DNA of 64,000 nt from Candidatus Eiseniibacteriota bacterium (GTDB taxonomy: Bacteria; Eisenbacteria; RBG-16-71-46; JABDJR01): assembly GCA_963762255.1 (NCBI GenBank), contig CAVXKA010000001.1, forward strand, positions 1,322,121 through 1,386,120, read 5' to 3'. Below, piece after piece: positions 31,466 through 53,715 of this stretch. The position numbers were made by a program, and so were the translations under genes. The notes beneath the pieces were generated by a model. It searched no databases. It was not told the DNA's origin and saw only the letters and a program-made list of their open reading frames with translations. How positions within the stretch are numbered: position 1 is the first letter of the stretch; each line of letters begins with the position of its first letter.

Positions 31466-31505
31466 GCCCTCCTGAAGAATCCCCTTGCCTCCGCGCAACA
31501 TCAAA

Positions 31506-32431: not shown

Positions 32432-32440
32432 AAGGCGATC

Positions 32441-32665: not shown

Positions 32666-32754
32666 AACGACCTGGTGACGATGGGGAGCGCAGCCTCGCC
32701 CCGCTTGCCGACAATGCTCTATCATCGTGCCTCATCCCGCGAAAGGGGCATGGC

Positions 32755-34998: not shown

Positions 34999-35126
34999 GC
35001 CGCGGGCGGCTGGCGGCTCCATCGCGCCGGAGCGCGCCTTCGGCCCCGGACGGGTCCCGGCCGTACCTGCTAAAGTACTCGGCCGCGGGAAAGCGCCTCC
35101 CGCGCATTGGAAAGGAGACCACGCGC

Positions 35127-36194: not shown

Positions 36195-36200
36195 AGCCGT

Positions 36201-36800
36201 TCAGCTCGCGGCCGGCCGCCCGATGGGAAGCACCGGGTGGCCGAGCTGCTCCTCCAGCACCTCGGCCATGGCCAGATAGATGGCGCTGGCTCCGCATGCG
36301 ATGCCCTCCCACCCCGCGATCCTGCCGATCGTCACCGAACCGCTGAAGTCACGCGCAGCGAGCAGGAAGAAGAGCACGGTGAGCGAGAGGAACACGAACT
36401 GGAGGGCGCGATTGGCGCGCAGCGTGCCGAAGAACATGAACAGGGTGAACACGCCCCATAGCGCGAGATACCAGCCCATGTACGCTTCGGGGGTCTTGTC
36501 CATCCAGGTCGTCCTCGGGCCGACGACGAGCACCACGAAGCTGAGCCAGAAAAACCCATACGACGTGAACGCGGTCAGCCCGAACGTATTGCCCTTCTTG
36601 AACTCGAGGATCCCCGCGATCACCTGAGCGATGCCTCCGTAGCAGAGGCCCATGGCCAGGACCATGGCGCTCAACGGAAAGAAACCGGCGTTGTGAATGT
36701 TGAGGAGCACGGTGGTCATGCCGAAGCCCATCAACCCGAGCGGCGCGGGATTGGCGGTCTTCTCCAAGGGGACACCTTCTTTCTGGATGCGGGCGCGCAC
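36201..36800 (-). CDS. satP: GPR1/FUN34/YaaH-family acetate/succinate transporter
   Basis: NPAPLGLMGFGMTT signature. Six TM segments. Confidence 0.85.
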   Translation of the reverse strand: MRARIQKEGVPLEKTANPAPLGLMGFGMTTVLLNIHNAGFFPLSAMVLAMGLCYGGIAQVIAGILEFKKGNTFGLTAFTSYGFFWLSFVVLVVGPRTTWMDKTPEAYMGWYLALWGVFTLFMFFGTLRANRALQFVFLSLTVLFFLLAARDFSGSVTIGRIAGWEGIACGASAIYLAMAEVLEEQLGHPVLPIGRPAAS

Positions 36801-36861
36801 GCCCGCGGCCGTTTGCGGCGCTGGCCGGCGGTACCCCGCCGGCCCCTCGCCGCCGGAATCG

Positions 36862-37977
36862 CTACATCAAGTTCTCCGGGTTGAGCCCGTGCAGTTCCTT
36901 CGGGACGAACAACCCGTCCTTGCGGACGAGCTTCCCGTCGAAGTGGATCTCGCCCCCGCCCCACTCCGGGGTCTGGATGCAGACAATGTCCCAGTGGAGC
37001 GCCGAGTGGTTCCCGTTGGGCGCGGCGTCGTAGGAGTTTCCCGGCGTGAGATGGAAGCTACCGCGGATCTTCTCGTCGAAGAGGGTGTCGAGCATGGGCT
37101 TGGTCACATGCGGGTTCACCCCGAGAGCGAACTCCCCGAAGTAGCGGGCGCCCTCGTCGATGTCGAGTATCTCGTTCATCTTCTTTGCGTCGCCCTCGCA
37201 GGTGGCGTTGACGATCTTGCCGCTCTTGATCTCGAAGCGGAGGTTCTTGAACAGCGCCCCTTCCTCCAGGGTGCTCGTGTTGTACTGGATGACGCCGTTC
37301 ATGGAGTCCCTGACGGGAGCTGTGTAGATCTCTCCGTCCGGGATGTTGATGTGGCCGTCGCACTTGACGGTGGGGATCCCCTTGATCGAGAAGCGGAGGT
37401 CGGTGCCCGGCCCCTTGATGTGCACCTGGTCCGTCTTCTCCATGAGATCGAAGAGGGGATCCATGGCCTTGCTCATCTTGGCGTAGTCGAGCGTGCAGAC
37501 GCGATAGTAGAACTCGGCGAAGTCCTCGGTGGAGCGCTGGGCGAGCTGGGCCATGGCCGGGTTCGGATAGCGCATCACGCACCACCGCTTCTTGAGCCGG
37601 ACCCCGAGGTGCACGTCCTTCCAGTAGCTGTTGTTGAACCCCTTCATGCGCTCGGCGTCCACGTCGGCGAGGTCGAAGGGGTTGGTGGGGCCGCGGAGCC
37701 CGATGTACGCGTCCACCGCCTCCATGATCGGTTTGTGGAACTGCCCCCAGGCGGCGAACTGCTCGGGAGAGGCGTTCTTGATGAAGTTGCGGCTCACCGA
37801 TTCGTCATTGTAGTACCAGAAGGGCACGCCGCCGCGCAGGGTGGCGATTCGGATCAACTCGCCCCCGAGCTCGAGGGCCTCGATGCCTTTGATCTCGATG
37901 TAGATCTTCTCGCCCGGTTTGAGCTGAATGCTGTAGTCGATGAGCTGCTCGGCTAGCTTGGTGTTTCGGGGATCCAT
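36862..37977 (-). CDS. M29-family aminopeptidase (AmpS/PepS-like)
   Basis: Collinear similarity to thermophilic aminopeptidase T/S family. 371 aa. Confidence 0.8.
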   Translation of the reverse strand: MDPRNTKLAEQLIDYSIQLKPGEKIYIEIKGIEALELGGELIRIATLRGGVPFWYYNDESVSRNFIKNASPEQFAAWGQFHKPIMEAVDAYIGLRGPTNPFDLADVDAERMKGFNNSYWKDVHLGVRLKKRWCVMRYPNPAMAQLAQRSTEDFAEFYYRVCTLDYAKMSKAMDPLFDLMEKTDQVHIKGPGTDLRFSIKGIPTVKCDGHINIPDGEIYTAPVRDSMNGVIQYNTSTLEEGALFKNLRFEIKSGKIVNATCEGDAKKMNEILDIDEGARYFGEFALGVNPHVTKPMLDTLFDEKIRGSFHLTPGNSYDAAPNGNHSALHWDIVCIQTPEWGGGEIHFDGKLVRKDGLFVPKELHGLNPENLM

Positions 37978-38002
37978 GGGGTTTCCACTCCTCGGGTTGG
38001 GG

Positions 38003-38764
38003 TCAATGAGTCGGCCCGTGCGGATGCGGATGCTGGAGGATGTGCGGTTTCTCCAGACCGTGCGCGAGCATGAACGCTTCGTCGGAAAGCAACTCCACCG
38101 TCGGCCCGTCGGCGATGACCCGGCCCGCGTCGAGGACGATCGTGCGCGGACAGAGTTCGACCACCAGTTCGAGGTCGTGGGTGGCGATGATCTTGGTGGC
38201 CGGAATGGCGCGCAGGAGCGTTTTCAGCTCCCGCTTGGTGCGGGGATCGAGATCGCTGGTCGGCTCGTCCAGCGCCAGAACGAGCGGGCGGCAGGCGAGG
38301 ATGCCGGCCAGGCATACCCGCTGCTTCTCGCCGCCGCTCAGGTGATGGGGTGCGCGGTCCTCGAACCCCGTCAGCCCCACCTGCGCCAGCGCTTCCGTCA
38401 CCAGCGCGCGCACCTCGCCGTCATTCGAGCCGAACTGCTGCGGGCCGAAGGCGACGTCTTCGTAGACGGTCGGGCAAAAGAGCTGATCGTCGGGATCCTG
38501 GAACAGAAGTCCCACCCGGCGTCGGACGATATCCACCGTCGACGCAGTCACAGGGTCGCCGTGGATGAAGACGGCCGCCGGGCCCGCGAACTTCTCAGGG
38601 AGGATGCCGTTGAGGTGAAGGAGCACGGTCGATTTCCCGGCGCCGTTGGGACCGATCAGCCCCACACACTCGCCCTCGGCCACTCCGAAACTCACGTCCC
38701 GCAAAGCGTCCTTGCCGTCCGGGTATCGGAAACTCAGAGCGCGCAGCTCGACGGCGAGGCTCAT
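38003..38764 (-). CDS. cbiO: ECF-type cobalt/nickel transporter ATPase
   Basis: Walker A GPNGAGKST, signature LSGGEKQRV, Walker B LALDEPTSDLD. Confidence 0.85.
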   Translation of the reverse strand: MSLAVELRALSFRYPDGKDALRDVSFGVAEGECVGLIGPNGAGKSTVLLHLNGILPEKFAGPAAVFIHGDPVTASTVDIVRRRVGLLFQDPDDQLFCPTVYEDVAFGPQQFGSNDGEVRALVTEALAQVGLTGFEDRAPHHLSGGEKQRVCLAGILACRPLVLALDEPTSDLDPRTKRELKTLLRAIPATKIIATHDLELVVELCPRTIVLDAGRVIADGPTVELLSDEAFMLAHGLEKPHILQHPHPHGPTH

Positions 38765-39372
38765 TGCCACCCTCGAGCGCGCATCGCCGCGTAGACCCTC
38801 TCGCCGCGCACCGACGAGCGCACGAAGAGTTGAGCGGTCACCGATGCCAAAGACTGCCACGCCTGCCGGCGAGAGCGAGCGAAGGTGCGGCTCGCCCGCG
38901 CTCGCTTCAATCGCCCCGCCTCGTCCACCAGCACGAACAGGTAGCGAACCATGAGCGCGATCACCGTGACGAGGAGCGAGGGTACGCGCATCCTCCGCAT
39001 GAAGCGGAGAAGATCCGAGACCGGCGTCACCGCGGCGAGGAGGACCATGGCGAAGAGGCAGATGGTGCTCTTGGCCAGGACGCCGAGGAAGATCACGACA
39101 CCGTGCGGCTGGAAGAGGCTCAGGAGCGCCACTCCCAGCACGAACGGCTCCAGGAGCAGGACGCGGCGGGCGAGGAAGGCGGCGGGGACGCGACTCAACG
39201 CGGCCGCGGCGAGGAGCAGCACCGCGGTCACGCCCAGCGGCCACACGCGGCCGAATGGAGTCAGCACCACCGCAAGGATCGCCGCCACCGCACCGGCAAG
39301 CTTGATCCCGGTGCGAAGCCGATGCACAGGGCTCGAGAGCCGGGCGGTGTGTTCGAAGAGGACAGAGCGCAT
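38761..39372 (-). CDS. cbiQ: ECF transporter transmembrane (T) component
   Basis: Hydrophobic five-TM protein overlapping cbiO by 4 nt. Conserved R-rich C-terminal loop. Confidence 0.75.
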   Translation of the reverse strand: MRSVLFEHTARLSSPVHRLRTGIKLAGAVAAILAVVLTPFGRVWPLGVTAVLLLAAAALSRVPAAFLARRVLLLEPFVLGVALLSLFQPHGVVIFLGVLAKSTICLFAMVLLAAVTPVSDLLRFMRRMRVPSLLVTVIALMVRYLFVLVDEAGRLKRARASRTFARSRRQAWQSLASVTAQLFVRSSVRGERVYAAMRARGWQ

Positions 39373-39382
39373 GATCGGTCTC

Positions 39383-40342
39383 TCAGCTCTTGGGCAGCGA
39401 CGCCCGCGATCGCGCCGTTCCCGGGACGAGGATTCGAGCGAGAGCGAACGCGAGTCCGAAGGCGATCACCGTTCCGATGGCCCCCGCGAGCGCGGTCGCC
39501 ATCGCGGCAGATTCGATACCGCCCAGCCGATAGTCGGCCCAAGGAGAGAGCGCCGGCGACACACTCGCCGCACGGTGCTCGAATCCGAGCTTGCCTGCGA
39601 CCCGCTCCAGTCCGTCGGGCCACGCCGAGGCGAAGGGAGCCACGAAGAGCGCGAGGCCGACCGCGAGCAGGGACCCATATGCGATCGCATCGCGATAGCC
39701 AGGGCGGGCAGTCGCGGAATCGTCCAGCAGCTCCGGCCGAGTGCGGCCGACCGCGGCGATGACGAGGGTGGTGATGAGCCCCTCGCCAAGCCCGATCAGC
39801 ATGTGCACGTTGGCCATGGCGGGGAAGGCGGCCGACCAGGCGACGGTGCCGGACCACGCGAGTTCGCCCGCACAGAGCACGGCAGCGAGTACGGTCGAGC
39901 ACCAGGCGGCGAAGAACACGGCGAGGAAGCGGCCGCGCTCGCCTCGGAGCGTCCCGCGCACGGTGCGATAGACCGCGTAGCCGAAGAGCGGCGCCGCAAC
40001 CGCCATGTTGAGGATGTTCGCACCCAACGCGAGCAGGCCGCCGTCGGCGAAGAGGAGGCACTGCACGATGAGCACCGCGGTCATGACGACGACGGCGGCG
40101 CTGGGGCCGAGGAGCACCGCCACCAGCACGCCGCCCATCAGGTGGCCCGACGTTCCTCCGGCTACGGGAAAGTTCAGCATTTGCGCCGCGAACACGAAGG
40201 CGGCGGTGAGGCCCATCAGGGGAACGCGTCGCGGCGGCACTGTGCGACGGGCCTGGCGGAGGGCGTAACCCACCCCCGCCACCGAAAGCCCGGCGGCGGT
40301 GGCCGCCGTTCGAGCGTCCAGAAAGCCGTCCGGAATGTGCAT
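39383..40342 (-). CDS. cbiM: ECF cobalt/nickel substrate-specific component CbiM with a C-terminal CbiN-like extension
   Basis: N-terminus MHIPDGFLD is the CbiM/NikM hallmark. 319 aa suggests an M-N fusion. Confidence 0.8.
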   Translation of the reverse strand: MHIPDGFLDARTAATAAGLSVAGVGYALRQARRTVPPRRVPLMGLTAAFVFAAQMLNFPVAGGTSGHLMGGVLVAVLLGPSAAVVVMTAVLIVQCLLFADGGLLALGANILNMAVAAPLFGYAVYRTVRGTLRGERGRFLAVFFAAWCSTVLAAVLCAGELAWSGTVAWSAAFPAMANVHMLIGLGEGLITTLVIAAVGRTRPELLDDSATARPGYRDAIAYGSLLAVGLALFVAPFASAWPDGLERVAGKLGFEHRAASVSPALSPWADYRLGGIESAAMATALAGAIGTVIAFGLAFALARILVPGTARSRASLPKS

Positions 40343-40374
40343 CGTTCGCCCCCCGTCCCCTCGCAGTCACGCCC

Positions 40375-40458
40375 CGCAGCGCACCCGCAGCGCACCCGCA
40401 GCCCCCCGCGGCGCCCCGCGAGCCCGAGGAGAATACACCACGGGATGGGCAATTGCCC
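40375..40458. promoter_or_regulatory. divergent promoter/operator region: tandem direct repeats (CGCAGCGCACC x2-3) and the perfect palindrome GGGCAATTGCCC (40447-40458) between cbiM and the peroxidase gene
   Basis: Seen directly. No B12-box or other riboswitch consensus recognisable. Confidence 0.35.
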
Positions 40459-40522
40459 CGCCATCGAGTACCGTATCCGTACCCCCATGCCGAGCGGTTC
40501 TTCCGGAACCAGGAGGCATACG

Positions 40523-41568
40523 TGAGACTGAGTGTAGTGATTGCCCTCGCGGGGGTCGTGTTGGCCGCCCTCGTCGGCCTGTCACCCGCCTGGGCACAAG
40601 GACGGATGTTCGAAAACGGGCTCATGCCGGCTGTGCCGGTACCGCCCGACAACCCGCAAACCGACGCCAAGGTCAGGCTCGGCGCGCAGCTCTATTTCGA
40701 TACGCGGCTCTCGGCGGACAACACGATCAGTTGTGCGACGTGCCACGATCCTCGCACCGGATGGGCCAACCCGCACGCGACCGATACAGGGATCCGCGGG
40801 CAAGTGGGTGGCCGCAATTCGGGAACGGTGATCAACGCCGGTCACATGCGGTTCCAGTTCTGGGACGGCCGCGAGCCTTCGCTCGAAGGGCAGGCGGTAG
40901 GCCCCATCCACAACCCGATCGAGATGGGCGAGACCCACGAGAACGTGGTGCGCAAGCTCAACGAGATGCCGGGCTACCGCGAGCAGTTCCAGACGGTGTT
41001 CGGCCGTGACGCCGACATCGACGGCATCGCCAAGGCCATCGCCGCGTTCGAGCGCACCATCGTCTCCGGGCCGTCGCCGTACGACCTCTACGTGATGGGC
41101 GACAAGACCGCGATGAGCAAGGCCGCGGTGCGCGGTCTGCACCTCTTCAACGGCAAGGGCCACTGCACGCCGTGCCACAGCGGCCCGATGTTCTCCGACC
41201 AGTCCTTCCACAACCTGGGTGTGGGCATGGACGCGGAGAAGCCCGATCTGGGTCGTTTCGACAAGACCAAGGACCCGGCCGACTCCGGCCGGTTCAAGAC
41301 GCCGACGCTGCGCAACATCGCGCAGACTCCGCCCTACCTGCACGACGGCTCGGCCAAGACGCTCATGGACGTGATCGACGTCTACAACATGGGCGGCACG
41401 CCCAACGCGTACCTCGATCCGCTGGTGCTCCCGCTGAACCTCACGGCGCGCGAGAAGGCCGACCTGGTGGCGTTCATGGAGGCGCTGACCGGTCCCGTGC
41501 CCGAGGTGAAGATACCGACCTTCCCCGAAGGCCAGCCCAACGCCGATCCGAAGGGAGGCCTGCGATGA
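40523..41568 (+). CDS. ccp: di-haem cytochrome c peroxidase (CCP/MauG family)
   Basis: Signal peptide. Two CxxCH motifs (CATCH, CTPCH). Conserved FERT..., PTLRN, PYLHDG motifs. GTG start with RBS GGAGG. Confidence 0.9.
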
Positions 41569-42836
41569 AGACCCGCGGCATCTTGATCTGCTCGTTCCTG
41601 GCCGTGGTCGCGGCGACCTTGTGGGCGCAGTCGGCGCTCGCGGTGCCGGTGTTCGCGCGCAAGTACGGGTTCAACTGCACGATGTGCCACTCGAACGTGC
41701 CGCGCCTGAACGATTTCGGTCAGCGCTATCGCATGAACGGGTACCGCCTGCCGGGGCTCGTGAACGAAGAGAAGACGGTGCTGGAGACACCGGCGCCGGT
41801 GGCGTTCCGCACCAACGCCGGGTACTCGATGGAGCACCTGGGCTCCGTGGCGGAGTACTACTACGGAACCGAAACCGAACACGGCTTCATCAAGGCCGGC
41901 AACGAGAGTGACTTTCGCCTGAACGGGCTGGACATCCTCTCCGCCGGGCTTCTGGGACCGCGCATCGGCTACTCTCATGGTCTACGTGCCGCCGATCTCG
42001 GCCGCGCGCGGGCTGGCCGAGCAGGAGGGTACGCTGGAGATGGCGAGCCTCGTGCTGAGCGACCTGGCCGGAAGCTGGCTCAATGCGCGGGTGGGTCGCT
42101 TCGAGCCCGCCTACGTGCCGTTCAGCGTGAAACGCCAGCTCAGCGTGGCGCCGTACGAGGTCTACGATCTCGCGTTCCCCGGCGGACCGGCGCTCTCCGA
42201 GGTGCAGTCCGGCATCGAGTTGAGCGGGTATGGCCCGCAACGCTTCCAGTACGCGGCGGGGTGGGTCGACGGCTCCGCCACCAACGCGCCCGACGATACG
42301 CCCGCCGACTTCTACGGTCGGGCCGCCTACGTGATCAATCCCGGCGAGGGGCAGACGGTGGGGCAGCGGTTGGGGGTGATCGGGTACCTGGGGAGTGCGC
42401 GACCGATGAGCGGAACCGACACGCGAGAAGTTCTCCCGGTCTCGGCGTGGACGCCAGCCTCAACGTCGCGATGGCCAACCTGGCGCTGCAGTATCTGTGG
42501 GCGGCAGACGACAAGATGCTTTGGGGCGCCGACGAGAACGTCGATTACTCGGGCGGATTCGCCGAGCTGAGCGTGCTACCCATGGTCAATCTGGTGGGGT
42601 TCGCGCGGCTGGACTTGATCAACCAGTGCGAGGACTACGGGTTCGACGTGAACCGCTACACGGTGGGTGGTCGCTACTACCTGGAGGACAATGTCGCCGT
42701 TCACGCCGAGTACTCGTACCGGATGGTAAAGGATGCCGTTGTGAGCCCTGTCGGAACTTCCGTCGTCGAGATCCGGGGGGACGCCATCAGTTCGTCGCTT
42801 CACCGCGCGACTGGATTTCGTGTTCTAGGGAAATGA
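41565..42836 (+). pseudogene. Cyc2-like fused monohaem cytochrome-porin (outer-membrane), two frame disruptions (~41975, ~42430)
   Basis: ATGA overlap with ccp. Signal peptide MKTRGILICSFLAVVAATLWAQSALA. A single CTMCH haem motif within about 12 residues of the mature N-terminus. The remaining roughly 400 aa are rich in amphipathic beta-strands with aromatic girdles and end ...HRATGFRVLGK. The segment 41977-42430 is read in another frame. Confidence 0.5.
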
Positions 42837-42878
42837 GGCCGGGGGGCGGCGCAAGCCGTCCCCCCGGATTGAAACCCG

Positions 42879-45856
42879 ATGATCGGCCGCACGATCTCCC
42901 ATTACCGCATTCTGGAGAAGCTGGGCGAAGGGGGGATGGGCGTTGTCTATCGGGCCGAGGATACGACTCTCAAGCGCGCGGTCGCGCTCAAGTTCATCTC
43001 GACTCGGGCCCTGGTGGATGAGACCGCCCGGGCCCGCTTTGTTCACGAGGCCCAGGCCGCCGCCGCTCTGGATCATCCCAACATCGGCACGATCCACGAG
43101 ATCGGGGAAGCGGACGGGCAGCTCTTCATCGTGATGGCTCTCGTCGAGGGACAGAGCCTCGGCGAGCGGATCGCGGAAGGTCCACTGCCGCTGGCGACGG
43201 CGCTCGACATCGCCCTCCAGGTGGCCGAAGGCCTCGAAGCCGCCCACGCCCGCGGCATCGTCCATCGGGACATCAAACCCGCCAACATCCTGCTGACGTC
43301 ACGCGGACAGGCGAAGATCATGGACTTCGGCCTCGCCGCGTCCCCGGAGCTGACGCAGCTCACGCAACCGGGGACGACGTTGGGCACGGTCGCCTACATG
43401 TCGCCGGAGCAGGCGCGCGGGCAATCGGCGGATGGCCGCAGTGACCTCTGGGCGCTCGGGGTCGTGCTGCACGAGATGCTCACCGGCGGGCGGCCCTTCC
43501 GAGGCGACGGCGAGCAGGCCGTGCTGCGCGCGGTGCTCAACGACCCGCCGCCTCCGGTGACCGGCTTGCGCGCGGGGATCCCGATCGAGATCGACCGTAT
43601 CCTGGAGAAGGCGCTGGCCAAGGACCCTCGCGAGCGCTACCAGCACGCGGACGAGCTCCTGGCCGACCTGCGCCGCGTGAAGCGGCAGATCGAGAGCGGG
43701 GTGGCGGCGACGGTGCCGCTCGGCGCCACCGGAGCGCAACGCGGACGGCGGTGGCCGAGGATCGCGCTTCCCATGGCGGTGGTGATCGTGGCGGCGGCGC
43801 TTTTCGCGACGCGCCCGCTCTTCTGCGACCGGGAGGCGCTGGCGAGCCCGGTGCCGATCGCGGTGATCGGCTTCGTGAACCAGACCGGCGACAGCACCTA
43901 CGACTACCTGCAGGCGGCGATCCCCAACCTGCTCATCACGAGCCTCGAGCGATCGCGGTTCCTGCGCGTGGCGACCTGGGAACGCATGCAGGATCTGTTG
44001 CGCCAGTCGGGGCGGCCGGCGATAGAAGTGATCGACAAGGATACCGGCTTCGAGCTCTGCCGCATGGACGGCATTCAGACCGTGGTGCTGGGCACCATCA
44101 CCCGGGCCGGCGACACCTTCGCCACCGACGTCAAGGTGCTCGACGTGGGCACCAAGGAGCTCCTCGCCGGGGCGAGCGCACGCGGCAAGGGGGTCGAGAG
44201 CATCCTCGAGTCGCAGATCGACCGCTTGAGCCGCGACATCTGCAACGCGGCCGGGATTGAGCGAACGTCGGGCGGCCCCCACCGAGGCCCCGGTGGCGGG
44301 CGTGACCACCGCCTCGATGGGCGCCTACGACCTCTTCCTGCGCGGCAAGGAGGCCTACTGGAAGACGTACCACGCTGAGGCCCGCGAGGTCCTCCGGCAG
44401 TCCGTTCAACAGGATTCCACCTTCGCGGTGGCGTGGCTCTACCTCGGCCGAGTGTACGCCGCCCTGCAGCGCGAGCGCGAGCGTGACGACGCCTACCGCA
44501 CCGCCATGCGTCTGGTCTCCCGGGCCGCGGAGAAGGACCGCCTCTACATCGAGGCCGCCTACGCGGCCACGGTGGAGAAGGACACCGCCAAGCAGGTAGC
44601 GCATCCTTCGCGAGCTGGTTCGTCGATACCCCGGGGAAAAGGAGGCGCACCAGGCGCTGGGCCTCTGCTTCAGAGGCCAGGGGCTGTACCGGGAGGAAAT
44701 CCCCCAGTACGAGGCCGCCCTGGCGTTGGACCCGCAGTTCGCCGCGGTGCTCAACACCATGGCCTACGCCCACGCGCGGCTGGGGGAGATGGAGCAGGCG
44801 GAGGCGTACCTGAACCGGTACGCGGCGGCCGCGCCCGGGGATGCCAACCCCTTCGATTCCATGGGTGAGCTCTGCTTCGACATGGGAGATCTGGATCGCT
44901 CGCGCGCGAACTTCGAGCGCGCGTTGGCGGTGCGTCCCGATTTCAATTCGCACGTCAAGCTCGCCTATCTCGCGGCGCTGCGACGAGGACTACGATGGGG
45001 CGGCCGTAAGTCCTGTCCCGGCGGCTTGCGCTGTCGGGGGATCCTCGCGACATGGTGAACACCCGGTGGTGGCAGGCGTTCTACATGTTCTGGCAGGGCC
45101 GGCGTCGGGAGAGCCTCGACGCCTACGACGAATTGGTCCGGCAGTCCGAGGCGTCGGGGATGCCCTGGATCGCGACCTCCGCAGGGTGGGGGGCCGGGAT
45201 CGTCGAGATCGCGCGCGGGGACATCGCCGACGCTCGCGTGCGTTGCGCCGATCTGGACGCCTACAGCCGGACGGTGGCCGCCGATCGGCAACCCGGTGTC
45301 CGGATCCGGGTGGAGTACTTCCGCCTTCTCGTCGAGCTCCGCGCCGGGGACCTGGATTCCGCCCGCGTTGCGCTCGCGCGCGCGGAGCAGTTCTACGCCG
45401 CGTGTTCTTCCCGGCGACCACGAGACGGCCGTCGCGTTCCTGGACGCGATGCGAGGCGAGTTGCTGCTGGCGGAAGGCAAGCTTGCGGACGCCACGTCGG
45501 TGTTCGTTCGCTGCAATGAACCCGAGTTCCTCATGACCGACCTGATGCGAGGGGCCCTGTTCAACGTGTCGTACCCCGTCGATGGGCTTGCTCGCACCTA
45601 CCTGGCGCAGGGGAAGCGGGACGCCGCCATCGCGGAATACGAACGGCTGGTCTCGCCCGATCCCAACCAGCGCGCTCGTCTGTTGATCCGTCCGCTGGAC
45701 CGCTATCGCCTCGGGGTGCTCTACCAGGAAGCGGGAGAGAACAAGAAAGCGGTCGAGCAATTCGACCGCTTCCTCGCGATCTGGAAGGACGCCGATCCCG
45801 ATATCCCGGAATTAGCCGACGCCAGGGCCCGGCGCGCCGCGCCGGCGGGCAGGTGA
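42879..45856 (+). pseudogene. Ser/Thr protein kinase with a TM segment and C-terminal TPR-repeat region; at least four frame disruptions (~44275, ~44590, ~45020, ~45410)
   Basis: Hanks kinase motifs (GEGGMGVVY, VALK, HRDIKPANILL, DFG, SPE). TM helix IALPMAVVIVAAALFA. TPR-like helical repeats continue through 44257-45856 in alternating frames. Confidence 0.7.
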
Positions 45857-46027
45857 TCGAAGCCGCTTTCTTACAGGCTGTCCCCCACGTCGTTTCGAGG
45901 AAGTAACCATGCGGTGATCGCGGTGTCGCCGGAGGTGAACCAGACATCCATCGGAGGGGTGGTCTGGAAGGCGACCTGGGGGCTGGCGGAGAGCGATCTC
46001 CTCGCAGCATTCCCTCACCGTCGATCC

Positions 46028-46381
46028 CTACCGTGCGTGACGTGGCGCACTGTGGTGGCCGACCCAGAATCCGGTCAGGAAGATCGCGGTCTGGACGAAG
46101 ACGGCGGCGGCGGCGGGAATCGGGGAGCGCCACCAGGGTCTGACCCGCGACGGGCGGCGATTCCCGGCCTGCGTCTCCAGGAGCTGCATCAGCACCCGCG
46201 CCGGCGGGTCGGGGAGCGCGGATTCGCGGAAGCGCGCGATCGCCCCCTCCATCGCGCGAATCGTCTCGCCGCACGCCGGGCACGCCGCGGCGTGAGACTC
46301 CACTTCTGTACGACCCGCGGGATCGAGTTCGTCCAGCACGTAGGCGATCAGGACGTCTTCGACAACATGATGTTCGCTCAT
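46028..46381 (-). CDS. zinc-binding anti-sigma factor (HxxxCxxC ZAS-like) with a C-terminal TM segment
   Basis: ESHAAACPACGE motif. Overlaps the upstream ECF sigma gene by 4 nt. RBS GGAG. Confidence 0.65.
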   Translation of the reverse strand: MSEHHVVEDVLIAYVLDELDPAGRTEVESHAAACPACGETIRAMEGAIARFRESALPDPPARVLMQLLETQAGNRRPSRVRPWWRSPIPAAAAVFVQTAIFLTGFWVGHHSAPRHAR

Positions 46382-46966
46382 GGCTGTTTCTCCTTGCTCG
46401 GACAAACTCGTAGCGGGGTGAAGCCGCTCTCACCCACGATCCGCTGGACACGCTTCATGGCATGGTGGACACGAGAGCGTAGAGTCCCTTCGGGCTCTCC
46501 GCAGATGGCCGACATCTCGCGATAGGAACGATCTTCGTGAATCCTGAGAAAAAACGCCTGCGCATAGGCCGGCGGCAGGTCCGATAGCGCCGACTCCACG
46601 ACCTCGAGGAGATCCTTGTGATCTACGGCATGTCTCGGGCTCTTCCGCCGGCCGCCGCGTGGCATCCAGCACGGCCGACGACAGTTCGTCATGCCGCCGC
46701 TGCGCGCGCCGACGGTCATATGCGATTCGGGTGGCGACGGTGAAGAGCCACGAGCGGAATCGCCCGCGTCCGGTGTACTGGCCACGTCCCTGCAAGATCC
46801 GCAGGTAGGTCTCGTGCAGGACGTCCTCCGCCTCCGCGCGCTCCCGGAGCATCCGCTCGAGATACGAGAGGAGGGCCGGAGCGTGACGGCGATACAGTTC
46901 GGCCAGCGCTCGGGGATCGCCCCCGCGGCTGCGTATCACCAGGAGATCGTCGTCCGTCTCGTCCAC
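46378..46966 (-). CDS. ECF (sigma-70 family) RNA polymerase sigma factor; one frame disruption (~46650)
   Basis: Region 2 ([16 protein letters not shown]...[12 protein letters not shown]) and region 4 ([44 protein letters not shown]) lie in two different frames. Confidence 0.65.
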
Positions 46967-46984
46967 GCTGATCGTTTGCGGCCG

Positions 46985-48291
46985 CTACTGCCAGCGATCC
47001 GCATCCTTGGATTCGGGGTCCAGTTCCTTCCAATACTTGGCCACTGCCTTCACCTTCTCGGTCTGGCCGTGGAAGTTGAGAATGTGGATGGCCGTACCGA
47101 GAGCGTAGCGCACTCCCGCCATGTCTCCCTGTTTCGCGAGCGGTCCCGCAGCCGATTGCAGCACCGCGGGGTAGTTCCTCATGAGCATGCCCACCGCGGA
47201 GGTCGGCCCCCAGGGGACGCCGAGATCGGTCGCGCTGTCGAGGCGAAAGTCGTCCCGGAAGAGTCGGATCGTCTTGGCGGCGTCGATGGCGTGGGAATCC
47301 GCATCGTCCTGCGCGCCCGCGTCCTTCCCGCCCGACTTCACCCGCCAGAGGAGGCCCTCGATCTCGAGACCGCCCTCGCAGCACTTCAGATAGTTCTCGG
47401 ACACGGTGATCGCCAGGTACACCGGCCCCTTCCAGGTTCCGGCACGCACCCTGTCGACCAGATCCTGAAGGAGAACCTGCGAAAATCCTGCGGTCCTTGC
47501 CGAGCTTCCCGCCCGCCCACTGGGTGCTCCGCTCGCGCACGGCCGTCTCGCTGAAGGGCGGCGAACCGAAGGCCGCTCCCTTCCACACGTTCACCGCGTA
47601 CTCCTCGACGTTCAGAAGCGACAGGTTCACGACGAGGACGTCGGTGCGCACCCCGCGAACGGCCTGGAGCGCAAGCAGGGGATAGGTGTCGTTGTCGCCG
47701 TTGGTGAGAAGAATGGCGTTCGGCTCGGCGCTCATGAGGAGGTTGTACCCGAAATCCAGTACGGGCGCCGAGAGGCCTCCCTTATCGAGGAGCGCCTCGC
47801 AGGTGTTCGCGAACCTCGTCCCGCTTGCCATCGATCATGGCGAAGGAGCAGAGGATGAAGTGGGGCTCCGGCCAGTTTGGCGCCAACTCCACGGCGCGCT
47901 GACCGAACCGGCGTCCCTCGTCGCGCGCCTGCGTGAAGGCGTGCTTCCAACCCGCCATCGCCTCCAGCGCCTCGGGGCAGTCGGGGTTCACTTCGATCGC
48001 TTTGCCGATCAGCGCTTCGCGCTCCTCCTGCGTTCCGGCGCCCGCGTAGCGCATGGCCCGGTACTGCTCGACATATCCCACCGCCTCCTGCGGGTGGTCC
48101 TTGACGTAGGCTCGCCACTGTTCGACGAGCGCCTCGTAGGATTCCTTGGGGAGAATCGTCTCGCGCAGGGAACGGACCTCGGGGGGCATGCCCGGCCGGA
48201 TCGAAGGGGCGCCGGCGAATGCGGTGCCCGCGAGGGACAGAACGGCCAGGGACGCGATGGCGCTGCGGAAGGACGCCGGTTTCGATTTCAT
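46985..48291 (-). pseudogene. hypothetical secreted protein, roughly 435 aa, disrupted by about three frameshifts
   Basis: Signal peptide MKSKPASFRSAIASLAVLSLAGTAFA. The protein continues through three ORF fragments (47782-48291, 46716-47831, 46985-47449). Confidence 0.4.
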
Positions 48292-48312
48292 GTCTGGCTC
48301 CGGGTTGAAGGG

Positions 48313-49939
48313 TCAAGATCGGGGGCTCCCGTAGAACGCGGGAGCCCCCTGATTCGTTGAGCCGGACTGGAAGACCCTTGCACGCCCGGAGACCGGGGCC
48401 GCTAGGGAAGCGGCTGCATCGTCATCGGATCGCGCAGAGGGATCCTCTTCGGCTCGCCGCCCGCGAGCTGCGTGCAGGGTCACGTCGTGCTTGCCGTCGG
48501 GCTGCACCATCTCGGCGGCGCTCCCCACCATGAGGAACGTCATCTTCTCAGGATCCAGCAGCCGGCGCGCCACCCGCTGCACGTCCTCCACGGTGACCGC
48601 GCTCAGCCGGCTCGTGTACTCGGCGAAGTAGTTGGGATCCTTCCGGTAGCGCCCCGTCAACTCCTCCGCCGCCAGCGCGCCGGAGATCGCCGCCGCATTC
48701 GGGAATCGGGCGGGGAAGCCCTCGATGAACGAGTTCTTGGCCGTGGCGAGATCTTCGTCGGAGATCGACTCGTCGCGGATGCGGTTGATCTCCTCGAGCG
48801 CGATCTGGGTCGCGTAGGCGGTCGAACGGGCCTTGGTCTGGAAGACCAGCCGCCACGGGTCCGGGATAGTAGAACCCGCCCTCGAGGCGCGAGTTGACCG
48901 AGTAGGCCAGCCCTTCGTCGGAGCGGATGCGATTGACCAGACGCGAGGTGAAGCCGCCGCCGCCGAGGACGTAGTTCATGACCATGGCCGCGGGAAAGTC
49001 GGGATCGTAGCGATCGACGGCGACGAGCCCGATGGAGACTCGCGTCTGGTTCACGTCCTTGTCGGCGATGAACCAGCCCGCCTTCGAGGGCTCGGCGGGC
49101 GCTGCCGGAGCTCCGGGGTTCTCGCCGGGCGTGGGCCAGCCGGCGAAGGCCTTCTCGAGCTTCTTCACCATGGCCTTCTTGTCGAAGTCGCCGGACACCG
49201 ACAACACGAAGTTCTTCGGTCCCATAGTGCGCCGTTGGAAAGAGACCATGTCCTCGCGCGTGATGGAGTTCATGGAGGCCTCGGTCGGATACCGGTTCGA
49301 CCAGTGATCCTCACCGCGCATGAGGTAGCCCCACTCGTAGCTCTCGATGCCGGCGCTCTCGTCGTTGCGCCGCTTCATGTCCTGGAGTTCCTGCTCCCGG
49401 CGCAGATCGAGCCGGTCCGCCTGGAACGCGCACCCCTTGAGGCAATCGGTCAGGAGCCCGAGCCCCTCGTCGATGTCCTTGGCCAGAAGGTTCAGCGTGA
49501 CATAGGACTCGGTGCCGGAGACCGGCACTCCGCCCATCCCGAACATGCCGCGGCCGCTCCCCATGCCGGATTGGAGCTGGGCGCCGAGAAACGACAGCCG
49601 CTCTTCGAGCTGCTCCGCGGTCATGAGCTGAGTGCCGCTGCGGGTGAGCAGGTGACAGGGTCGTGCTCGCCAGCCCCTCTTTGCCCGCGGGATCGAGATC
49701 GGGGCCGACGCGCATGATCACGCTGACCGTGACCAGCGGCAGCGTGCGGTCCGGAACGAGATAGGCCGGAATGCCGTTTCCGAGCGTCGACTCGGTACTG
49801 AGCCGCGTCGGGTGGGGTGAACTGCAGCGGCGGAAACTGGATCTTCTCCGGACGGTCGGGGATATCGGAGGCCGCCGCCGGACGCGCGGTCGCCATCAAC
49901 AGCGAGCAGCACGGCTCGCCAGGAGATGGATGCGGTTCA
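48313..49939 (-). pseudogene. M16-family (pitrilysin/PqqL-like) peptidase, non-catalytic-type subunit; at least four frame disruptions
   Basis: Start ATG with RBS GGAGG (MNRIHLLAS...). Collinear M16 middle and C-terminal domains are spread over several frames. The native C-terminus may lie at ~48403. Confidence 0.55.
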
Positions 49940-49956
49940 TCGTCGTTCCTCCGCTC

Positions 49957-51760
49957 ACTTGCTGCTCTGCAGCTGGGTGATGCGCGCCTGGGCCTTCGCG
50001 CGGATGTAGTCGAGAGCGGGCTTCATTTCCGGAGGCATCTGCCCCCCCATCTGCTCGATCCGCTCGAGGATCTTCTGCACCTGGGCCGGATCGGTGGCTC
50101 GCGTCAATGCGGCTCACCGTCGCCTTGACCATCTGCTTGGCGTCGGCGGGAAGCGCGGCCAGCGCCGGGTCCTCGGGTTCGGTCCCTCCCTTGCGCGTCC
50201 ACACCGCCACCGCGCGATTCTCCTTGCGGAAGTAGGTCTGAGCCACGCGCTGCACGTCGGCCGCGGTCACCGTCTGCACCGCCGCGTCGATGCGGTCGGC
50301 GTCCTTCCAGGAGCCCGTGCCCTCCGCCACCGCGTACCGGAAGAGAAGCTGCATGTTGGAGCTGATCTCGCGATAGCTCGAGGCGAGGTAGCGGTTCTTC
50401 ACCTTCTGCAGCTCGTCGGCGGTCACCGGCTCCTTCTGGAGCTTCTCGATCTCGGCGTGGATCGCCGTCTCCACCTCTTCCGGGGTGTGGCCTTCCTTGC
50501 ACTCGGCCGTCGATCTCGAACATGCCCCTCGTACTTGCGCGGGATCGTTGCGAGGCGCGGGCCTCGGTGGCGATTCCCCGATCCAGGACCAGGCTCTTCT
50601 GCAGCCGGCCTGTGGGCCCGTTCAGGAGACCCTCGAGGACGTTCAGCGCCGGCACGTCCCGATGCACGTACGCAGCCGCGTGCCAGCGCACCCACACCGC
50701 CGGGTTGGTCTCGGCCTCCGCGTAGAAACGCTTCTCGGCGGTGGCGGGGATCTCGGAGGTGATCATCTCCGGCGCCGGCTTCGGCCCGCGCGGGATCGCG
50801 CCGAGGTACTTCTCGGCCATGGCCAACGTCTGCTTCGGGTCGAAGTCGCCGACCAGGATCGCGGTCAGGTTCTGCGGCGCGTAGTAGAGCGAGTAGTACT
50901 CGTCGGCCTGCGCCTTGGTGATGTTGGCGATGTCGCTCGGCCAGCCGATCACCGGCCACAGATAGGGGCTCGAGTCCCAGAACATGGCGTCGAAGGAGAC
51001 CTCGAACGGTCCGGTCGGCGTGGACTCCACCGAGCGGCGCCGCTCCTCGTAGACCACGTCGCGCTCGGAGTAGAACTCGCGGAAGACGCGGTTCTGCAGC
51101 CGGTCGGATTCCATCCAGAACCAGAGCTCGAGCTTGTTGGCGGGCACGGTCTCGAAGTAGACCGTCATGTCCTCGCTGGTGAAGGCGTTGATGAAGGTGG
51201 CGCCGTTCTGCTGGAGGATGAGATCGAACTCGTTCTTGACCATGTTGGCGCGCTGGGCGGTCACCAGGGAATCGAACTGCGCCTCCAGCTGGAGGTAGCG
51301 CGGCGTCTTCGCCTCCGGCCGGGTCATGTCCTCGATGTCTCCCCGGCGCTGCGCCGCGCGCATCGCGCTCAGCTCGGCGCGCATCTCGTCCCGGATCGCG
51401 CTCCTGCTCCTCGATGAGCTGCACGTCCTTGGCGTAGTCGCGGGTGCCGATCACGTGGGTTCCCTTGAACATCATGTGCTCGAAGAGGTGCGAGATCCCG
51501 GTGATCCCGGGGCGCTCGTTGACGGAGCCGACGTGGGCCACCCAGGCGCCGCAGACCGTCGGGCTCAGGTGCTGGGGGATGAGCACGAGTTTCATCCCGT
51601 TGGAGAGGACGTACTCTTCGATGGGCAGGCTGGGGCCCGCGGGGGCGGCCGTGCCCCCGCCTTTGGGGGCGGCGACCGCCGCCACGGAGAAGATGACGGT
51701 GAGCAGCACGGCGATGCCGGCAACCGAGACGAGGGAACGCACTGGGGAGGATCGACTCAT
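49957..51760 (-). pseudogene. M16-family zinc peptidase (HxxEH insulinase-type), three frame disruptions (~51390, ~50500, ~50110)
   Basis: Signal peptide MSRSSPVRSLVSVAGIAVLLTVIFSVAAVAA. Inverted zinc motif HLFEHMMFKGT. The C-terminal domain continues in other frames down to the stop at ~49957. Confidence 0.65.
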
Positions 51761-51854: not shown

Positions 51855-53715
51855 TCAAGAGCCTCGGAGTCGGTCCACGCCCGCGGTGGGAAAGCTCAAC
51901 TCGGTCTGCGGGATCCGTCCGGACTCACGGTTAGGAGCGATCGTCTCGGAAAGCAGCCCGAGCACCTCGGCGCGCTTCACCGATCCCACCAGGCGCTTCT
52001 CGTGCAGGCTGCTCACAACGGGGATGTTCCGCTGTTCGCTGGCCACCACCGCAGGCAGGGCCTCGATGAGCGTTTGATCCGGCGTGACACAGGGGGGCGA
52101 GGTCCGCATGAGGTCGTGGGCGATGACGGCCATCTCCTGATGTCCCCTCAAGTACTCCTTCATGTCCTGCAGCGCCACCACGCCGACCAGCCGATGCTCG
52201 TCGTCGACGACCGGCAGATAGTTGTTGGCGCTGGCGAGGAACCGGTGAGCGATCTCGGTTAGCGGCGTCCTCTCCGAGAGAGGGGCGATCGGCGACCGCA
52301 TCAGCTCACCTATGGTCTGCGCCGTGACGTCCTCGGGTCCCGCCGTATCCCGCTCGAAGGTCAGACCCCTGATACCGCAGGGGTTCGGTGTAGACGGACG
52401 CCGCGTGCAGCCGTCGGGAGAGGAGGACGGAGACCGCACACCCGAGCATGAGCGGCGGCATCAGCGAGTAATTGAGAGAGATCTCGAAGATCATGATCAT
52501 CGCCAGCAGCGGGGAGTGGGTGGTGGCGGCGAGCATGCTTCCCATACCGACCAGGGCGAAGGCCGCCGAGGGGACTCCCGTCGCCTGTCCCAACCGGTGC
52601 ACGGTCAGCGCGAACGCGGTGCCCAACCCTGCCCCAAGAAAGAGGGTCGGAGTGAACACGCCGCCTACCGTTCCGGCTCCGACCGCGATCGATGTGGCCA
52701 ACAGTTTGGCGGCGATCAAGCCGGTGACGAGCAGCAAGGGAATCTGATCGGGGGCGAATTGCTCCCGCAGGAGCCGGTTGGTGATGACGTATCCGTTGCC
52801 CCAAACGCCGGGATACTCGATGGCGATGACCCCGACCACCAACCCCGCGATCATGAGACGAACGTAGATGGGGGCCGGCAGGCGCCGGAAACTCTCCTCG
52901 CTCCACCGCAGGAGCTTCAGGAAGAACGCGCCGAACCACCCGGCCAGGAGTCCAAGCAGGATGAACCACGGCAATTGCTCCAGCCGCGTGATGTCGAAAT
53001 CCGGTACCACGTACCACGGCGCGATGCCGAAGAAGCTGCGGGAGACGACCGAGGACATCACCGACGCGAAGACCAGGGGAGCGAAGGAGGGCATGGAGAA
53101 ATTGCCGAGCACGATGGTCGCCGCGAAAACCGCCCCCGAAATCGGGGCGTTGTAGGCCGCGGCGATTCCCGCCGCCGCTCCGCAGCCGACCAGCAATCGG
53201 AGCCGGTAGGGCTGGTAGCCGAGAACCTGCCCACCCTTGGAGGCGAGCGTGGCCGAGAGCTGCACGATGCCGCCTTCCCGACCGATGGACGCGCCGCTGC
53301 CGATGCTGACCAGCGAAGAGAGCGTCTTGACGAGCCCGCTTCGGAAGGGGAGCCGCCCGTCGCCCGCCACGACGACTTCGAGCAGGTTCGTCGACCCCTG
53401 AGGTCCCACCAGTCGCAATCCCCAATGCAGCACGAGGCCGGCGACCAAGCCGCCGACCGTCGGTATGAGGACCCGAAGCCAGGGGCTCAGGAACTCCGCG
53501 ACTTCCACCGGATCGCCCCTGTAGTGGAGAAAGAGCGTCTTCGTGGATTCCATGGCATGGTAGTACGCGAGGTTCGCGAGGCCGCCGATGACCCCGACCA
53601 CGCCGGCCAGCACCAGGTGGAACGCTTCCTCGGTCGGCTGGAACTTCCCGCGAAGGCGCATCGCGGGACGCCAGTGCCGTCGGAGAACCGACAGCGGCTT
53701 GGTGAAGCCCTTCAT
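51855..53715 (-). CDS. ClC-family chloride channel/H+-Cl- antiporter with a C-terminal CBS-domain pair; one frame disruption (~52350)
   Basis: GSGASIGREGG selectivity-filter motif and GVFTP. The CBS pair is encoded by fragment 51855-52439. ATGA overlap with the upstream GH92 stop. Confidence 0.75.

What the first reader, a model, noticed from the sequence alone, without database searches (positions are those of the whole stretch)
41565..51760. Frameshift hotspot: at least 17 frame disruptions across nine consecutive genes, against none in the preceding 19 kb
The window contains about 30 frame disruptions. The region 41.5-51.8 kb holds at least 17: Cyc2-like x2, kinase-TPR x4, ECF sigma x1, secreted hypothetical about x3, M16-B at least x4, M16-A x3. 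Meanwhile 22.6-41.5 kb, containing 17 genes, has none, and 8.2-15.1 kb has none. The other disruptions are at 4080, ~16275, ~16990, ~19880, ~21890, ~22230, ~52350, ~53950, ~55420 and ~58100. Only two sit in homopolymers (G6 at 4080, C-run at 19880), so simple homopolymer error does not explain them. The hotspot is either a locally degraded, pseudogenising accessory block or a low-coverage or collapsed-variant stretch of the assembly. This matters for every gene model in it.
Basis: seen in the sequence. Interest (0 to 1): 0.55.

Follow-up and report, generated by a model that had tools for sequence, protein, structure and literature searches.

The report
Assembly-error frameshift cluster, not pseudogenes
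Seven neighbouring genes look shattered by 25 frameshifts, but almost all are stray single extra bases absent from intact copies in related short-read assemblies, so the cluster is most likely a long-read assembly artefact rather than gene decay.

Summary
Between 41,973 and 51,397 there are 25 frame-breaking indels, not 17. They hit seven consecutive genes: Cyc2-like 4, kinase-TPR 5, anti-sigma 2, ECF sigma 1, TMEM260_2-like 2, M16-B 6, M16-A 5. None fall in the preceding 19.7 kb (binomial P about 6e-14).

The cluster does not look biological:
- Twenty-four of the 25 are insertions (22 of +1, 2 of +2), none sits in a homopolymer, and no sequence motif is shared.
- Deleting them restores seven full-length ORFs with no in-frame stop, 84-95% amino-acid identity to intact orthologues, and dN/dS of 0.09-0.22, the same as unbroken neighbours.
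- Three contigs that appear to be short-read assemblies carry the genes intact.
- A related 343-kb contig has 21 private +1 insertions of its own in the orthologous block, at different positions.
- In both long contigs, over half of the testable insertions sit at a site where relatives differ, and the extra base plus its neighbour spell both alleles (8/12 and 9/16 against about 9-10% expected, P about 1e-6).

This points to a consensus built from mixed strain reads. The gene models should be repaired, not annotated as pseudogenes.

The parts
41973..51397 (.). Hotspot proper: 25 frame-breaking indels in 9,425 bp (2.65 per kb, against 0.18 per kb in the rest of the window). 22 are +1 insertions, 2 are +2 insertions and 1 is a -1 deletion.
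   Evidence: DNA alignments to L083 and L081; statistics; no homopolymer or 4-mer motif at the sites.
41565..42828 (+). Cyc2-like protein: an N-terminal CxxCH haem motif (CTMCH) followed by a putative outer-membrane barrel. It is 419 aa once repaired. +1 insertions at 41973, 42416, 42440, 42797.
   Evidence: tblastn with the intact 419-aa L083 orthologue gives frames 3>1>3>1. Alignment gives 4 insertions, 95% aa identity, dN/dS 0.087 and 0 stops. No Pfam family matched.
42879..45856 (+). Ser/Thr protein kinase with a C-terminal TPR region, 990 aa once repaired. +1 insertions at 44256, 44599, 44983, 45007, 45397.
   Evidence: Pkinase domain plus TPR hits spread over three frames. Collinear hits to the intact 990-aa L083 orthologue at 86-94% identity. 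dN/dS 0.19 and 0 stops. The repaired ORF is 990 aa.
45871..46381 (-). Anti-sigma factor (zf-HC2), 169 aa once repaired. A -1 deletion at 46043 and a +2 insertion at about 46006.
   Evidence: tblastn frames -1>-3>-2 against the L083 169-aa orthologue; alignments; zf-HC2 hit on the repaired protein.
46378..46975 (-). ECF sigma factor (Sigma70_r2 plus r4_2), 199 aa once repaired. +1 insertion at 46634.
   Evidence: tblastn frames -1>-2. The alignment shows window 'AG' where relatives have A or G. Pfam r2 and r4_2 hit the repaired protein.
46988..48291 (-).
   Evidence: The stitched protein finds intact 434-aa homologues at 84-85% identity. tblastn frames -2>-3>-1. dN/dS 0.22 and 0 stops.
48402..49940 (-). 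M16-B peptidase subunit (Peptidase_M16_C), 510 aa once repaired. +1 insertions at 48475, 48866, 49654, 49788, 49902, 49915.
   Evidence: tblastn gives five frame segments against the L081 510-aa orthologue. Alignments. Peptidase_M16_C matches positions 1-180 of 181 on the repaired protein.
49955..51760 (-). M16-A peptidase subunit (HLFEH zinc motif, Peptidase_M16 plus M16_C), 599-600 aa once repaired. Insertions at 50101, 50509, 50524, 50545 (+2), 51397.
   Evidence: tblastn frames -1>-2>-3>-1 against the L081 600-aa orthologue. Alignments. Pfam domains on the repaired protein.
51918..56683 (-). Lower-density tail of the same error process: a CLC channel/CBS protein (+1 at 52374) and a GH92 glycosidase (+1 at 53963 and 55027).
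   Evidence: tblastn frame jumps. The insertions are private to the window in three-way alignments. Repaired ORFs are about 603 and about 990 aa.
22250..41972 (.). Control stretch with no frame disruption. It includes CCP_MauG (40606-41565), CbiM, CbiQ, the ABC ATPase and M29 peptidase.
   Evidence: No coding indels against L083 (36.9-41.97 kb) or against L082 and L083 (32.0-40.5 kb). For 22.6-32 kb the evidence is ORF and coding-frame continuity only.

Best explanation
The hotspot is a consensus-sequence artefact of a noisy long-read metagenome assembly. It is not gene decay. The window comes from a 1.72-Mb metagenomic contig.

In the stretch 41.97-51.4 kb, the reads used for consensus and polishing most likely came from two or more co-occurring strain variants that were collapsed onto one path. 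At some sites where the variants differ by a SNP, the consensus kept both alleles one after the other. That adds one base and breaks the reading frame.

The seven genes (Cyc2-like, kinase-TPR, anti-sigma, ECF sigma, TMEM260_2-like, M16-B, M16-A) are intact and under purifying selection in the organism.

Shown: the indels exist; almost all are non-homopolymer insertions; they are absent from intact orthologues; removing them restores complete, conserved ORFs; and they are enriched for the both-alleles-in-tandem pattern.

Inferred: the cause is strain mixing at the consensus step, for example because a likelihood model penalises a deletion in every read less than a mismatch in half of them. Also inferred: the block is locally heterogeneous because it lies between two gene-content junctions that vary among lineages.
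For: 1. Indel spectrum. 24 of 25 hotspot lesions are insertions (22 of +1, 2 of +2). The inserted bases have near-random composition, none sits in a homopolymer, and no 4-mer motif survives multiple testing. The 8 disruptions checked outside the hotspot all fit +1 insertions: five by DNA alignment (52374, 53963, 55027, 16289, 16988) and three by frame order only (~21895, ~22249, ~58100).

2. Intact orthologues. Contigs L081 and L083 (JGI) and L086 (Logan) carry all the genes uninterrupted. In a 4-way alignment, private 1-bp insertions number 12 in the window, 16 in L082, 0 in L081 and 0 in L086.

3. No decay. After removing the insertions all seven ORFs reach orthologue length (419, 990, 169, 199, 434, 510, 600 aa) with 0 in-frame stops and 84-95% aa identity. 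Their dN/dS is 0.09-0.22, against 0.06-0.25 for unbroken neighbours. Pfam domains are complete and private substitutions are not elevated.

4. Independent replicate. L082 is a 343-kb contig of a sister lineage (about 90% nt identity). It has 21 private +1 insertions in the orthologous M16-A to anti-sigma block. None shares a position with the window's insertions, and it has few elsewhere.

5. Mechanistic signature. 7 of 12 window insertions sit at a site where L081 and L082 differ, and the inserted base plus its neighbour equal the two alleles. The null is 6%, both analytically and by a simulate-insert-realign control (P 1.7e-6). With L086 added the counts are 8/12 for the window (P 1.3e-6) and 9/16 for L082 (P 6e-6). 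Two further examples are at 46634 and 44599.

6. Source. A 100%-identical ORF fragment of the window lies on a 1,723,983-bp NCBI/ENA contig. L082's record name (contig_66191) follows the contig_N style seen in the MFD Nanopore MAG records, which were assembled with Flye and polished with Medaka (PMC12313526).

7. Precedent. Frameshifts from long-read consensus indels and from collapsed alleles are documented (PMC9262707, PMC8445201).
Against: - No reads are available, so coverage and allele frequencies at the sites were not seen.
- Only about half of the testable insertions show the both-allele pattern. It appears in 1 of 4 testable kinase sites and 0 of 3 sites in the GH92/CLC tail, so a second error source (low depth) probably contributes.
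- The classical Nanopore error, homopolymer deletion, is not what is seen. The platform and polisher of the source assembly are unknown.
- The 'alleles' come from other lineages at 85-90% identity, not from the sample itself.
- It is unexplained why two separate assemblies have their hotspots in the same orthologous block.
Confidence: 0.85

Rival explanations
1. Plain low-depth long-read error. The block is simply covered by too few reads, for example because it is an accessory segment present in a subpopulation, and the consensus keeps random read insertions. Strain mixing plays no role.
For: The insertion positions show no motif and the inserted bases are near-random. About half of the testable insertions show no both-allele pattern. 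Sparse +1 insertions also occur elsewhere on the contig. The kinase-Cyc2-CCP segment is absent from L082, so part of the block is accessory.
Against: Random insertions should show the both-allele pattern in 6-10% of cases, not the 56-67% seen in two independent contigs. CCP_MauG lies in the same accessory segment and has no indel. The almost complete absence of deletions is odd for a low-depth consensus.
Confidence: 0.1
2. Genuine pseudogenisation. The accessory block has lost function in this organism and is accumulating real frameshift mutations.
For: All seven consecutive genes are hit, several of them many times. The block borders gene-content variation among relatives: EAL/HDOD is present only in L081, and kinase-Cyc2-CCP is absent in L082. 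A sister contig is also broken in the same block.
Against: - The repaired coding sequence has 0 in-frame stops, against 25 indels.
- dN/dS is 0.09-0.22, equal to intact neighbours, with no excess of private substitutions.
- There is a 24:1 insertion bias in non-repetitive contexts. Spontaneous bacterial indels are, from general knowledge, deletion-biased and repeat-associated.
- No lesion is shared with the sister lineage.
- Tandem both-allele insertions have no mutational explanation.
- The same +1 lesions hit other genes elsewhere on the contig, including an S46 peptidase, an ABC ATPase and GH92.
Confidence: 0.03
3. Recoding. The breaks are decoded in vivo by programmed ribosomal frameshifting, transcriptional slippage or RNA editing.
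For: None beyond the fact that the coding signal stays strong in every fragment.
Against: Orthologues in L081, L083 and L086 are uninterrupted at every one of the sites. L082's breaks are at different positions, so no site is conserved. The contexts show no slippery heptamer or homopolymer. Up to 6 shifts per gene would be unprecedented.
Confidence: 0.01

Closest known systems
Frameshift-causing indel errors in long-read (Nanopore or PacBio CLR) consensus assemblies, as measured by IDEEL-type truncated-protein tests (PMC9262707; proovframe preprint 10.1101/2021.08.23.457338)
   Same: Single-base indels in an otherwise accurate consensus split genes into fragments. Intact full-length orthologues exist. 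Reference-guided removal restores the ORFs.
   Different: The classical signature is length error, mostly deletions, in homopolymers. Here 24 of 25 are insertions outside homopolymers, and they are strongly clustered rather than spread along the contig.
Apparent frameshifts from collapsed haplotypes in mosaic consensus assemblies (T. brucei Lister 427, PMC8445201)
   Same: Two alleles collapsed into one consensus create artefactual broken ORFs that disappear when haplotypes are separated.
   Different: That case is a diploid eukaryote with read-level proof. Here the 'haplotypes' would be co-occurring bacterial strains in a metagenome, and the collapse is inferred from the both-alleles-in-tandem pattern without reads.
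Bacterial pseudogene clusters in degrading genomes or islands (for example host-restricted pathogens; general knowledge)
   Same: Runs of adjacent genes that each carry frame disruptions.
   Different: Real pseudogene blocks also show nonsense mutations, deletions, IS insertions, raised dN/dS and lesions shared by descent. None of these is seen here.

Membership tests
Long-read consensus / collapsed-strain assembly artefact | Lesions are absent from independent high-accuracy assemblies of close relatives, which carry intact ORFs | tested here: met
   L081, L083-L085 (JGI) and L086 (Logan) have all the genes intact. They show 0 private 1-bp insertions, against 12 in the window and 16 in L082, in the 4-way alignment. 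Caveat: the relatives are 82-91% identical in DNA, so they are not the same population.
Long-read consensus / collapsed-strain assembly artefact | Removing the indels restores full-length, conserved, selectively constrained ORFs | tested here: met
   Seven ORFs of orthologue length, 0 stops, 84-95% aa identity, dN/dS 0.09-0.22 as in the flanks, and complete Pfam domains.
Long-read consensus / collapsed-strain assembly artefact | Errors coincide with sites that are polymorphic among the reads (mixed alleles) | tested here: inconclusive
   Tested by proxy only. The inserted base plus its neighbour equal the two alleles seen in relatives at 8/12 window sites and 9/16 L082 sites, against a 9-10% null. 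Within-sample polymorphism itself could not be observed.
Long-read consensus / collapsed-strain assembly artefact | Raw reads do not support the inserted base; depth or SNP density is anomalous across the block | not testable with these tools
   No reads or depth information are available for the 1.72-Mb source contig.
Classical Nanopore homopolymer error | Indels lie in homopolymer runs and are mostly deletions | tested here: not met
   No hotspot indel sits in a homopolymer of 4 or more bases, and 24 of 25 are insertions. Only the two unverified sites outside the hotspot, 4080 (G6) and 19880 (C6), fit this class.
Genuine pseudogene block | Mixed lesion spectrum (nonsense, deletions, IS elements) and relaxed selection (raised dN/dS, excess private substitutions) | tested here: not met
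   0 in-frame stops, 1 deletion against 24 insertions, dN/dS equal to intact neighbours, and 241 private substitutions in the window against 230 in L082.
Genuine pseudogene block | Some lesions shared by descent with the closest relatives | tested here: not met
   None of the window's insertions in the block shared with L082 (46.2-51.7 kb) coincides with any of L082's 21.
Programmed frameshift / recoding site | The frameshift position is conserved in orthologues and has a slippery motif | tested here: not met
   Orthologues are uninterrupted at all the sites, and the contexts show no heptameric slippery sequence or homopolymer.

The most novel reading that the evidence does not exclude
The insertions are real mutations. 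A locus-restricted, insertion-biased mutational process would be acting independently in two sister lineages on the same M16 peptidase / ECF sigma / kinase block, so recently that substitutions and stop codons have not yet accumulated.

A milder version has higher probability (about 0.3) but lower interest. In that version the artefacts are technical, but they mark a genuine island of strain-level diversity or recombination that is conserved in position across related populations.
Probability: 0.03. Interest if true: 0.7.

Novelty: not a real feature. Interest (0 to 1): 0.12.

Why it matters
The impact is practical rather than biological. Every gene call between 41.9 and 51.4 kb is wrong as it stands, along with several others on this contig. 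An automatic annotator would report fragments or pseudogenes for a haem-porin, a kinase, a sigma/anti-sigma pair and an M16 protease pair that are almost certainly functional. That would distort metabolic and pseudogene-content inferences for this uncultured lineage.

The both-alleles-in-tandem pattern, seen in two independent long contigs, is a simple reference-based way to recognise strain-collapsed consensus errors without reads. The shared position of the hotspot hints that this block is unusually diverse within populations.

Tried and rejected
- Looked up the window's own proteins by exact sequence. Nothing was on record, so the source accession and sample could not be obtained. Only the length of the contig carrying an identical fragment (1.72 Mb) was found.
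- Scanned genome contigs with the kinase fragment. The 80 loci served only as a crude blastx database.
- Searched for a sequence motif, such as a methylation site like GATC, near the insertions. The best 4-mer had P 0.004 among 136 tested, which is not significant.
- Tested whether the window is a mosaic of L081-like and L082-like tracts or has excess divergence in the hotspot. It behaves as an independent third lineage with no excess of private substitutions.
- Asked whether the both-allele excess comes from gap placement by the aligner. A control that inserted random bases and realigned gave 6%, matching the analytic null.
- Pfam on raw fragments of Cyc2-like and of 15154-17026 gave nothing. 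Homologue searches were needed instead.
- The metagenome-contig scan was not used. The 5.8-billion-protein search had already shown no relative closer than 84-90% for the genes tested.
- The disruptions at 4080 and 19880 were not verified against a reference.
Full report

Yes. The window has 66% GC, so long spurious ORFs are common and ORF lists alone are unreliable. I trained a codon-usage model on long ORFs and ran it as a Viterbi path. It shows repeated same-strand frame switches between 41.5 and 51.8 kb, and long single-frame segments in 22.6-41.5 kb. Three-frame translations show recognisable proteins continuing from one frame into another. Pfam finds one kinase domain and TPR repeats spread over three frames.

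**2. References**

The genome-contig scan with the kinase fragment found nothing closer than 50% identity. I then stitched together the 'secreted hypothetical' and searched it against 5.8 billion proteins. It found intact 434-aa homologues at 84-85% identity (PF28495, TMEM260_2-like), plus a 283-aa fragment at 87% on a 343-kb contig.

The encoding contigs gave orthologous loci:
- L081 (JGI 3300037424): GH92, CLC, EAL/HDOD, M16-A 600 aa, M16-B 510 aa, TMEM260_2 434 aa, ECF sigma 199 aa.
- L083-L085 (JGI): TMEM260_2, sigma, anti-sigma 169 aa, kinase-TPR 990 aa, Cyc2-like 419 aa, CCP_MauG 320 aa, CbiM and onward.
- L082 (ENA ERZ25039527 contig_66191, 342,770 bp): the M16 genes, TMEM260_2 and sigma are fragmented, and kinase-Cyc2-CCP is absent.
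- L086 (Logan assembly of SRR16297629): M16-B, TMEM260_2, sigma and anti-sigma intact.

DNA identity to the window is 83-90%. I take the JGI and Logan contigs to be short-read assemblies from their sources. The assembly method was not checked.

**3. Exact lesions**

tblastn with the intact orthologues gives collinear hits that change frame inside every gene of the block. Pairwise and multiple DNA alignments place 25 frame-breaking indels between 41,973 and 51,397:

| Gene | Indels | Positions |
|---|---|---|
| Cyc2-like | 4 | 41973, 42416, 42440, 42797 |
| kinase-TPR | 5 | 44256, 44599, 44983, 45007, 45397 |
| anti-sigma | 2 | 46006 (+2), 46043 (-1) |
| ECF sigma | 1 | 46634 |
| TMEM260_2-like | 2 | 47486, 47796 |
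| M16-B | 6 | 48475, 48866, 49654, 49788, 49902, 49915 |
| M16-A | 5 | 50101, 50509, 50524, 50545 (+2), 51397 |

The block holds seven genes rather than nine, and the anti-sigma gene is also broken.

Three more +1 insertions lie at 52374 (CLC) and at 53963 and 55027 (GH92). There are none in 32.0-41.97 kb.

Elsewhere in the window:
- The gene at 15154-18803 is a single 1,216-aa HYR/PKD/FlgD_ig protein. Intact homologues are 1,211-1,219 aa. It carries +1 insertions at 16289 and 16988 relative to L087.
- An S46 peptidase (20493-22561) is split at about 21895 and 22249, with frames that fit +1 insertions.
- An ABC_tran domain is split near 58100, again with frames that fit +1.

Statistically, 25 of about 35 disruptions fall in 14.7% of the window (P 6e-14). 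No uniform permutation out of 20,000 reached this. A 19.7-kb stretch with no disruption has P 2.5e-6.

**4. What kind of lesions?**

Twenty-four of 25 are insertions: 22 single bases and 2 dinucleotides. The inserted bases are close to random in composition. None lies in a homopolymer, and no 4-mer is significantly enriched near them. Six neighbouring pairs are 40 bp or less apart, against 2.4 expected (P 0.04), and these pairs do not compensate each other's frame shift.

From general knowledge, spontaneous bacterial indels are deletion-biased and concentrated in repeats, and classical Nanopore consensus errors are homopolymer deletions (PMC9262707). This spectrum fits neither.

**5. Are the genes decaying?**

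No. Deleting the inserted bases and restoring the one missing base gives ORFs of 419, 990, 169, 199, 434, 510 and 599-600 aa. These are the lengths of the intact orthologues. Pfam domains are complete: Peptidase_M16_C matches positions 1-180 of 181 in both M16 proteins, and Sigma70 r2 plus r4_2 and zf-HC2 are also found.

The repaired genes have no in-frame stop, 84-95% amino-acid identity, and dN/dS of 0.09-0.22. Uninterrupted neighbours (CCP, CbiM, CbiQ, ABC) give 0.06-0.25. Private substitutions in the window (241) match those in its sister L082 (230), and divergence is not raised in the hotspot. Twenty-five real frameshifts with no nonsense mutation and no relaxation of constraint is not credible.

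**6. An independent replicate**

L082 is a sister lineage at about 90% identity. It carries 21 private +1 insertions in the orthologous M16-A to anti-sigma block (5.5 kb). None is at a position shared with the window. It has none in GH92/CLC and five in the 9 kb on the other side.

In a four-way alignment over 4.6 kb, private 1-bp insertions number 12 in the window, 16 in L082, 0 in L081 and 0 in L086. The lesion type therefore goes with the two long contigs and not with the lineage.

An ORF fragment 100% identical to the window lies on a 1,723,983-bp contig held by NCBI/ENA. L082's 'contig_N' record name matches the style of the MFD Nanopore MAG records in the genome collection. Those MAGs were assembled with Flye and polished with Medaka (PMC12313526). 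That link to a pipeline is an inference, not a demonstration.

**7. Mechanism**

Looking at the alignments, many insertions sit exactly where L081 and L082 differ, and the window carries both alleles in tandem. Examples: the window has CG where the relatives have C or G, and AG where they have A or G.

- Formally, 7 of 12 window insertions meet the strict criterion.
- The analytic null is 5.9%.
- With L086 added, the counts are 8/12 for the window (P 1.3e-6) and 9/16 for L082 (P 6e-6).
- Further examples occur at 46634 and 44599.

No mutational process produces this pattern. It is what a consensus does when reads carry two alleles and the model prefers 'both bases, with one deleted in every read' over 'one base, mismatched in half the reads'. 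That last step is my inference.

About half of the insertions lack the pattern, so low depth may contribute as well.

The block is bounded by gene-content differences among lineages. EAL/HDOD lies between CLC and M16-A only in L081, and kinase-Cyc2-CCP is absent in L082. A shared segment between variable junctions is a plausible place for an assembler to collapse strains. Why both contigs have their hotspot in the same block remains unexplained without reads.

**8. Comparison with what is known**

The phenomenon belongs to the well-known class of long-read consensus frameshift errors (PMC9262707) and collapsed-allele artefacts (PMC8445201). It differs from the textbook form in being insertion-only, outside homopolymers and strongly clustered. 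It fails every test for a pseudogene block and for programmed recoding (see the membership table).

**9. Verdict**

It is not a biological feature, and interest is low (0.12). The practical consequences are that the gene models in 41.9-51.4 kb, and about ten further sites in the window (eight checked here), need frameshift repair, and that pseudogene counts from this MAG would be inflated.

Confidence that the cluster is technical is about 0.95. Confidence in the specific strain-collapse mechanism is about 0.7.

Noticed in passing
L082:6173-11652 (ENA ERZ25039527 contig_66191): This related 343-kb public contig has 21 private +1 insertions in the orthologous M16-A to anti-sigma block. Its deposited gene calls there are fragments (366, 372, 35, 59, 283 and 94 aa). 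It has a few more insertions in the CbiQ/ABC and acyl-CoA dehydrogenase genes.
   Followed up: yes
window 40606-45856, compared with L082:11750-12087: The CCP_MauG, Cyc2-like and kinase-TPR segment is present in the window and in L083, and at least the kinase is present in L086. It is absent from L082, where the anti-sigma gene abuts CbiM. An EAL/HDOD gene lies between CLC and M16-A only in L081. The hotspot block is therefore flanked by gene-content variation among lineages.
   Followed up: partly
window 40606-42828: A di-haem cytochrome c peroxidase (CCP_MauG) sits directly upstream of a 419-aa protein with one CxxCH motif and a C-terminal ...RLDFVF ending that looks like an outer-membrane barrel. 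Together they are a candidate Cyc2-type iron-oxidation or extracellular electron-transfer pair in this uncultured lineage. No Pfam family matched the 419-aa protein.
   Followed up: no
window 40380-40457: A GC-rich intergenic repeat (units such as CGCACCCGCAG) upstream of CbiM is 24-42 bp longer in the window than in L083 and L082. It looks like a variable-length short tandem repeat.
   Followed up: no
window 15154-18803: One 1,216-aa secreted protein with a HEYGH zinc-protease-like motif, PKD and HYR domains and a FlgD_ig/CHU_C-type C-terminal domain. It is split into three frames by +1 insertions at 16289 and 16988. Intact homologues are 1,211-1,219 aa.
   Followed up: yes
window 20493-22561: An S46 (DPP7/11-like) peptidase is split into three frames at about 21895 and 22249. 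Its largest fragment is identical to a 471-aa protein recorded on a 1,723,983-bp NCBI/ENA contig, presumably the window's source.
   Followed up: partly
window 4080 and 19880: These are the only two disruptions in homopolymers (G6 and C6). They may be classical homopolymer-length errors, a different error class from the hotspot insertions. They were not checked against a reference.
   Followed up: no
window 15264, compared with L087:~433: There is a 1-bp difference near the 5' end of the 1,216-aa gene. Here the window's frame agrees with full-length homologues, and the JGI contig's gene call is N-terminally shortened (1,146 aa). This indel may lie in L087 rather than in the window.
   Followed up: no
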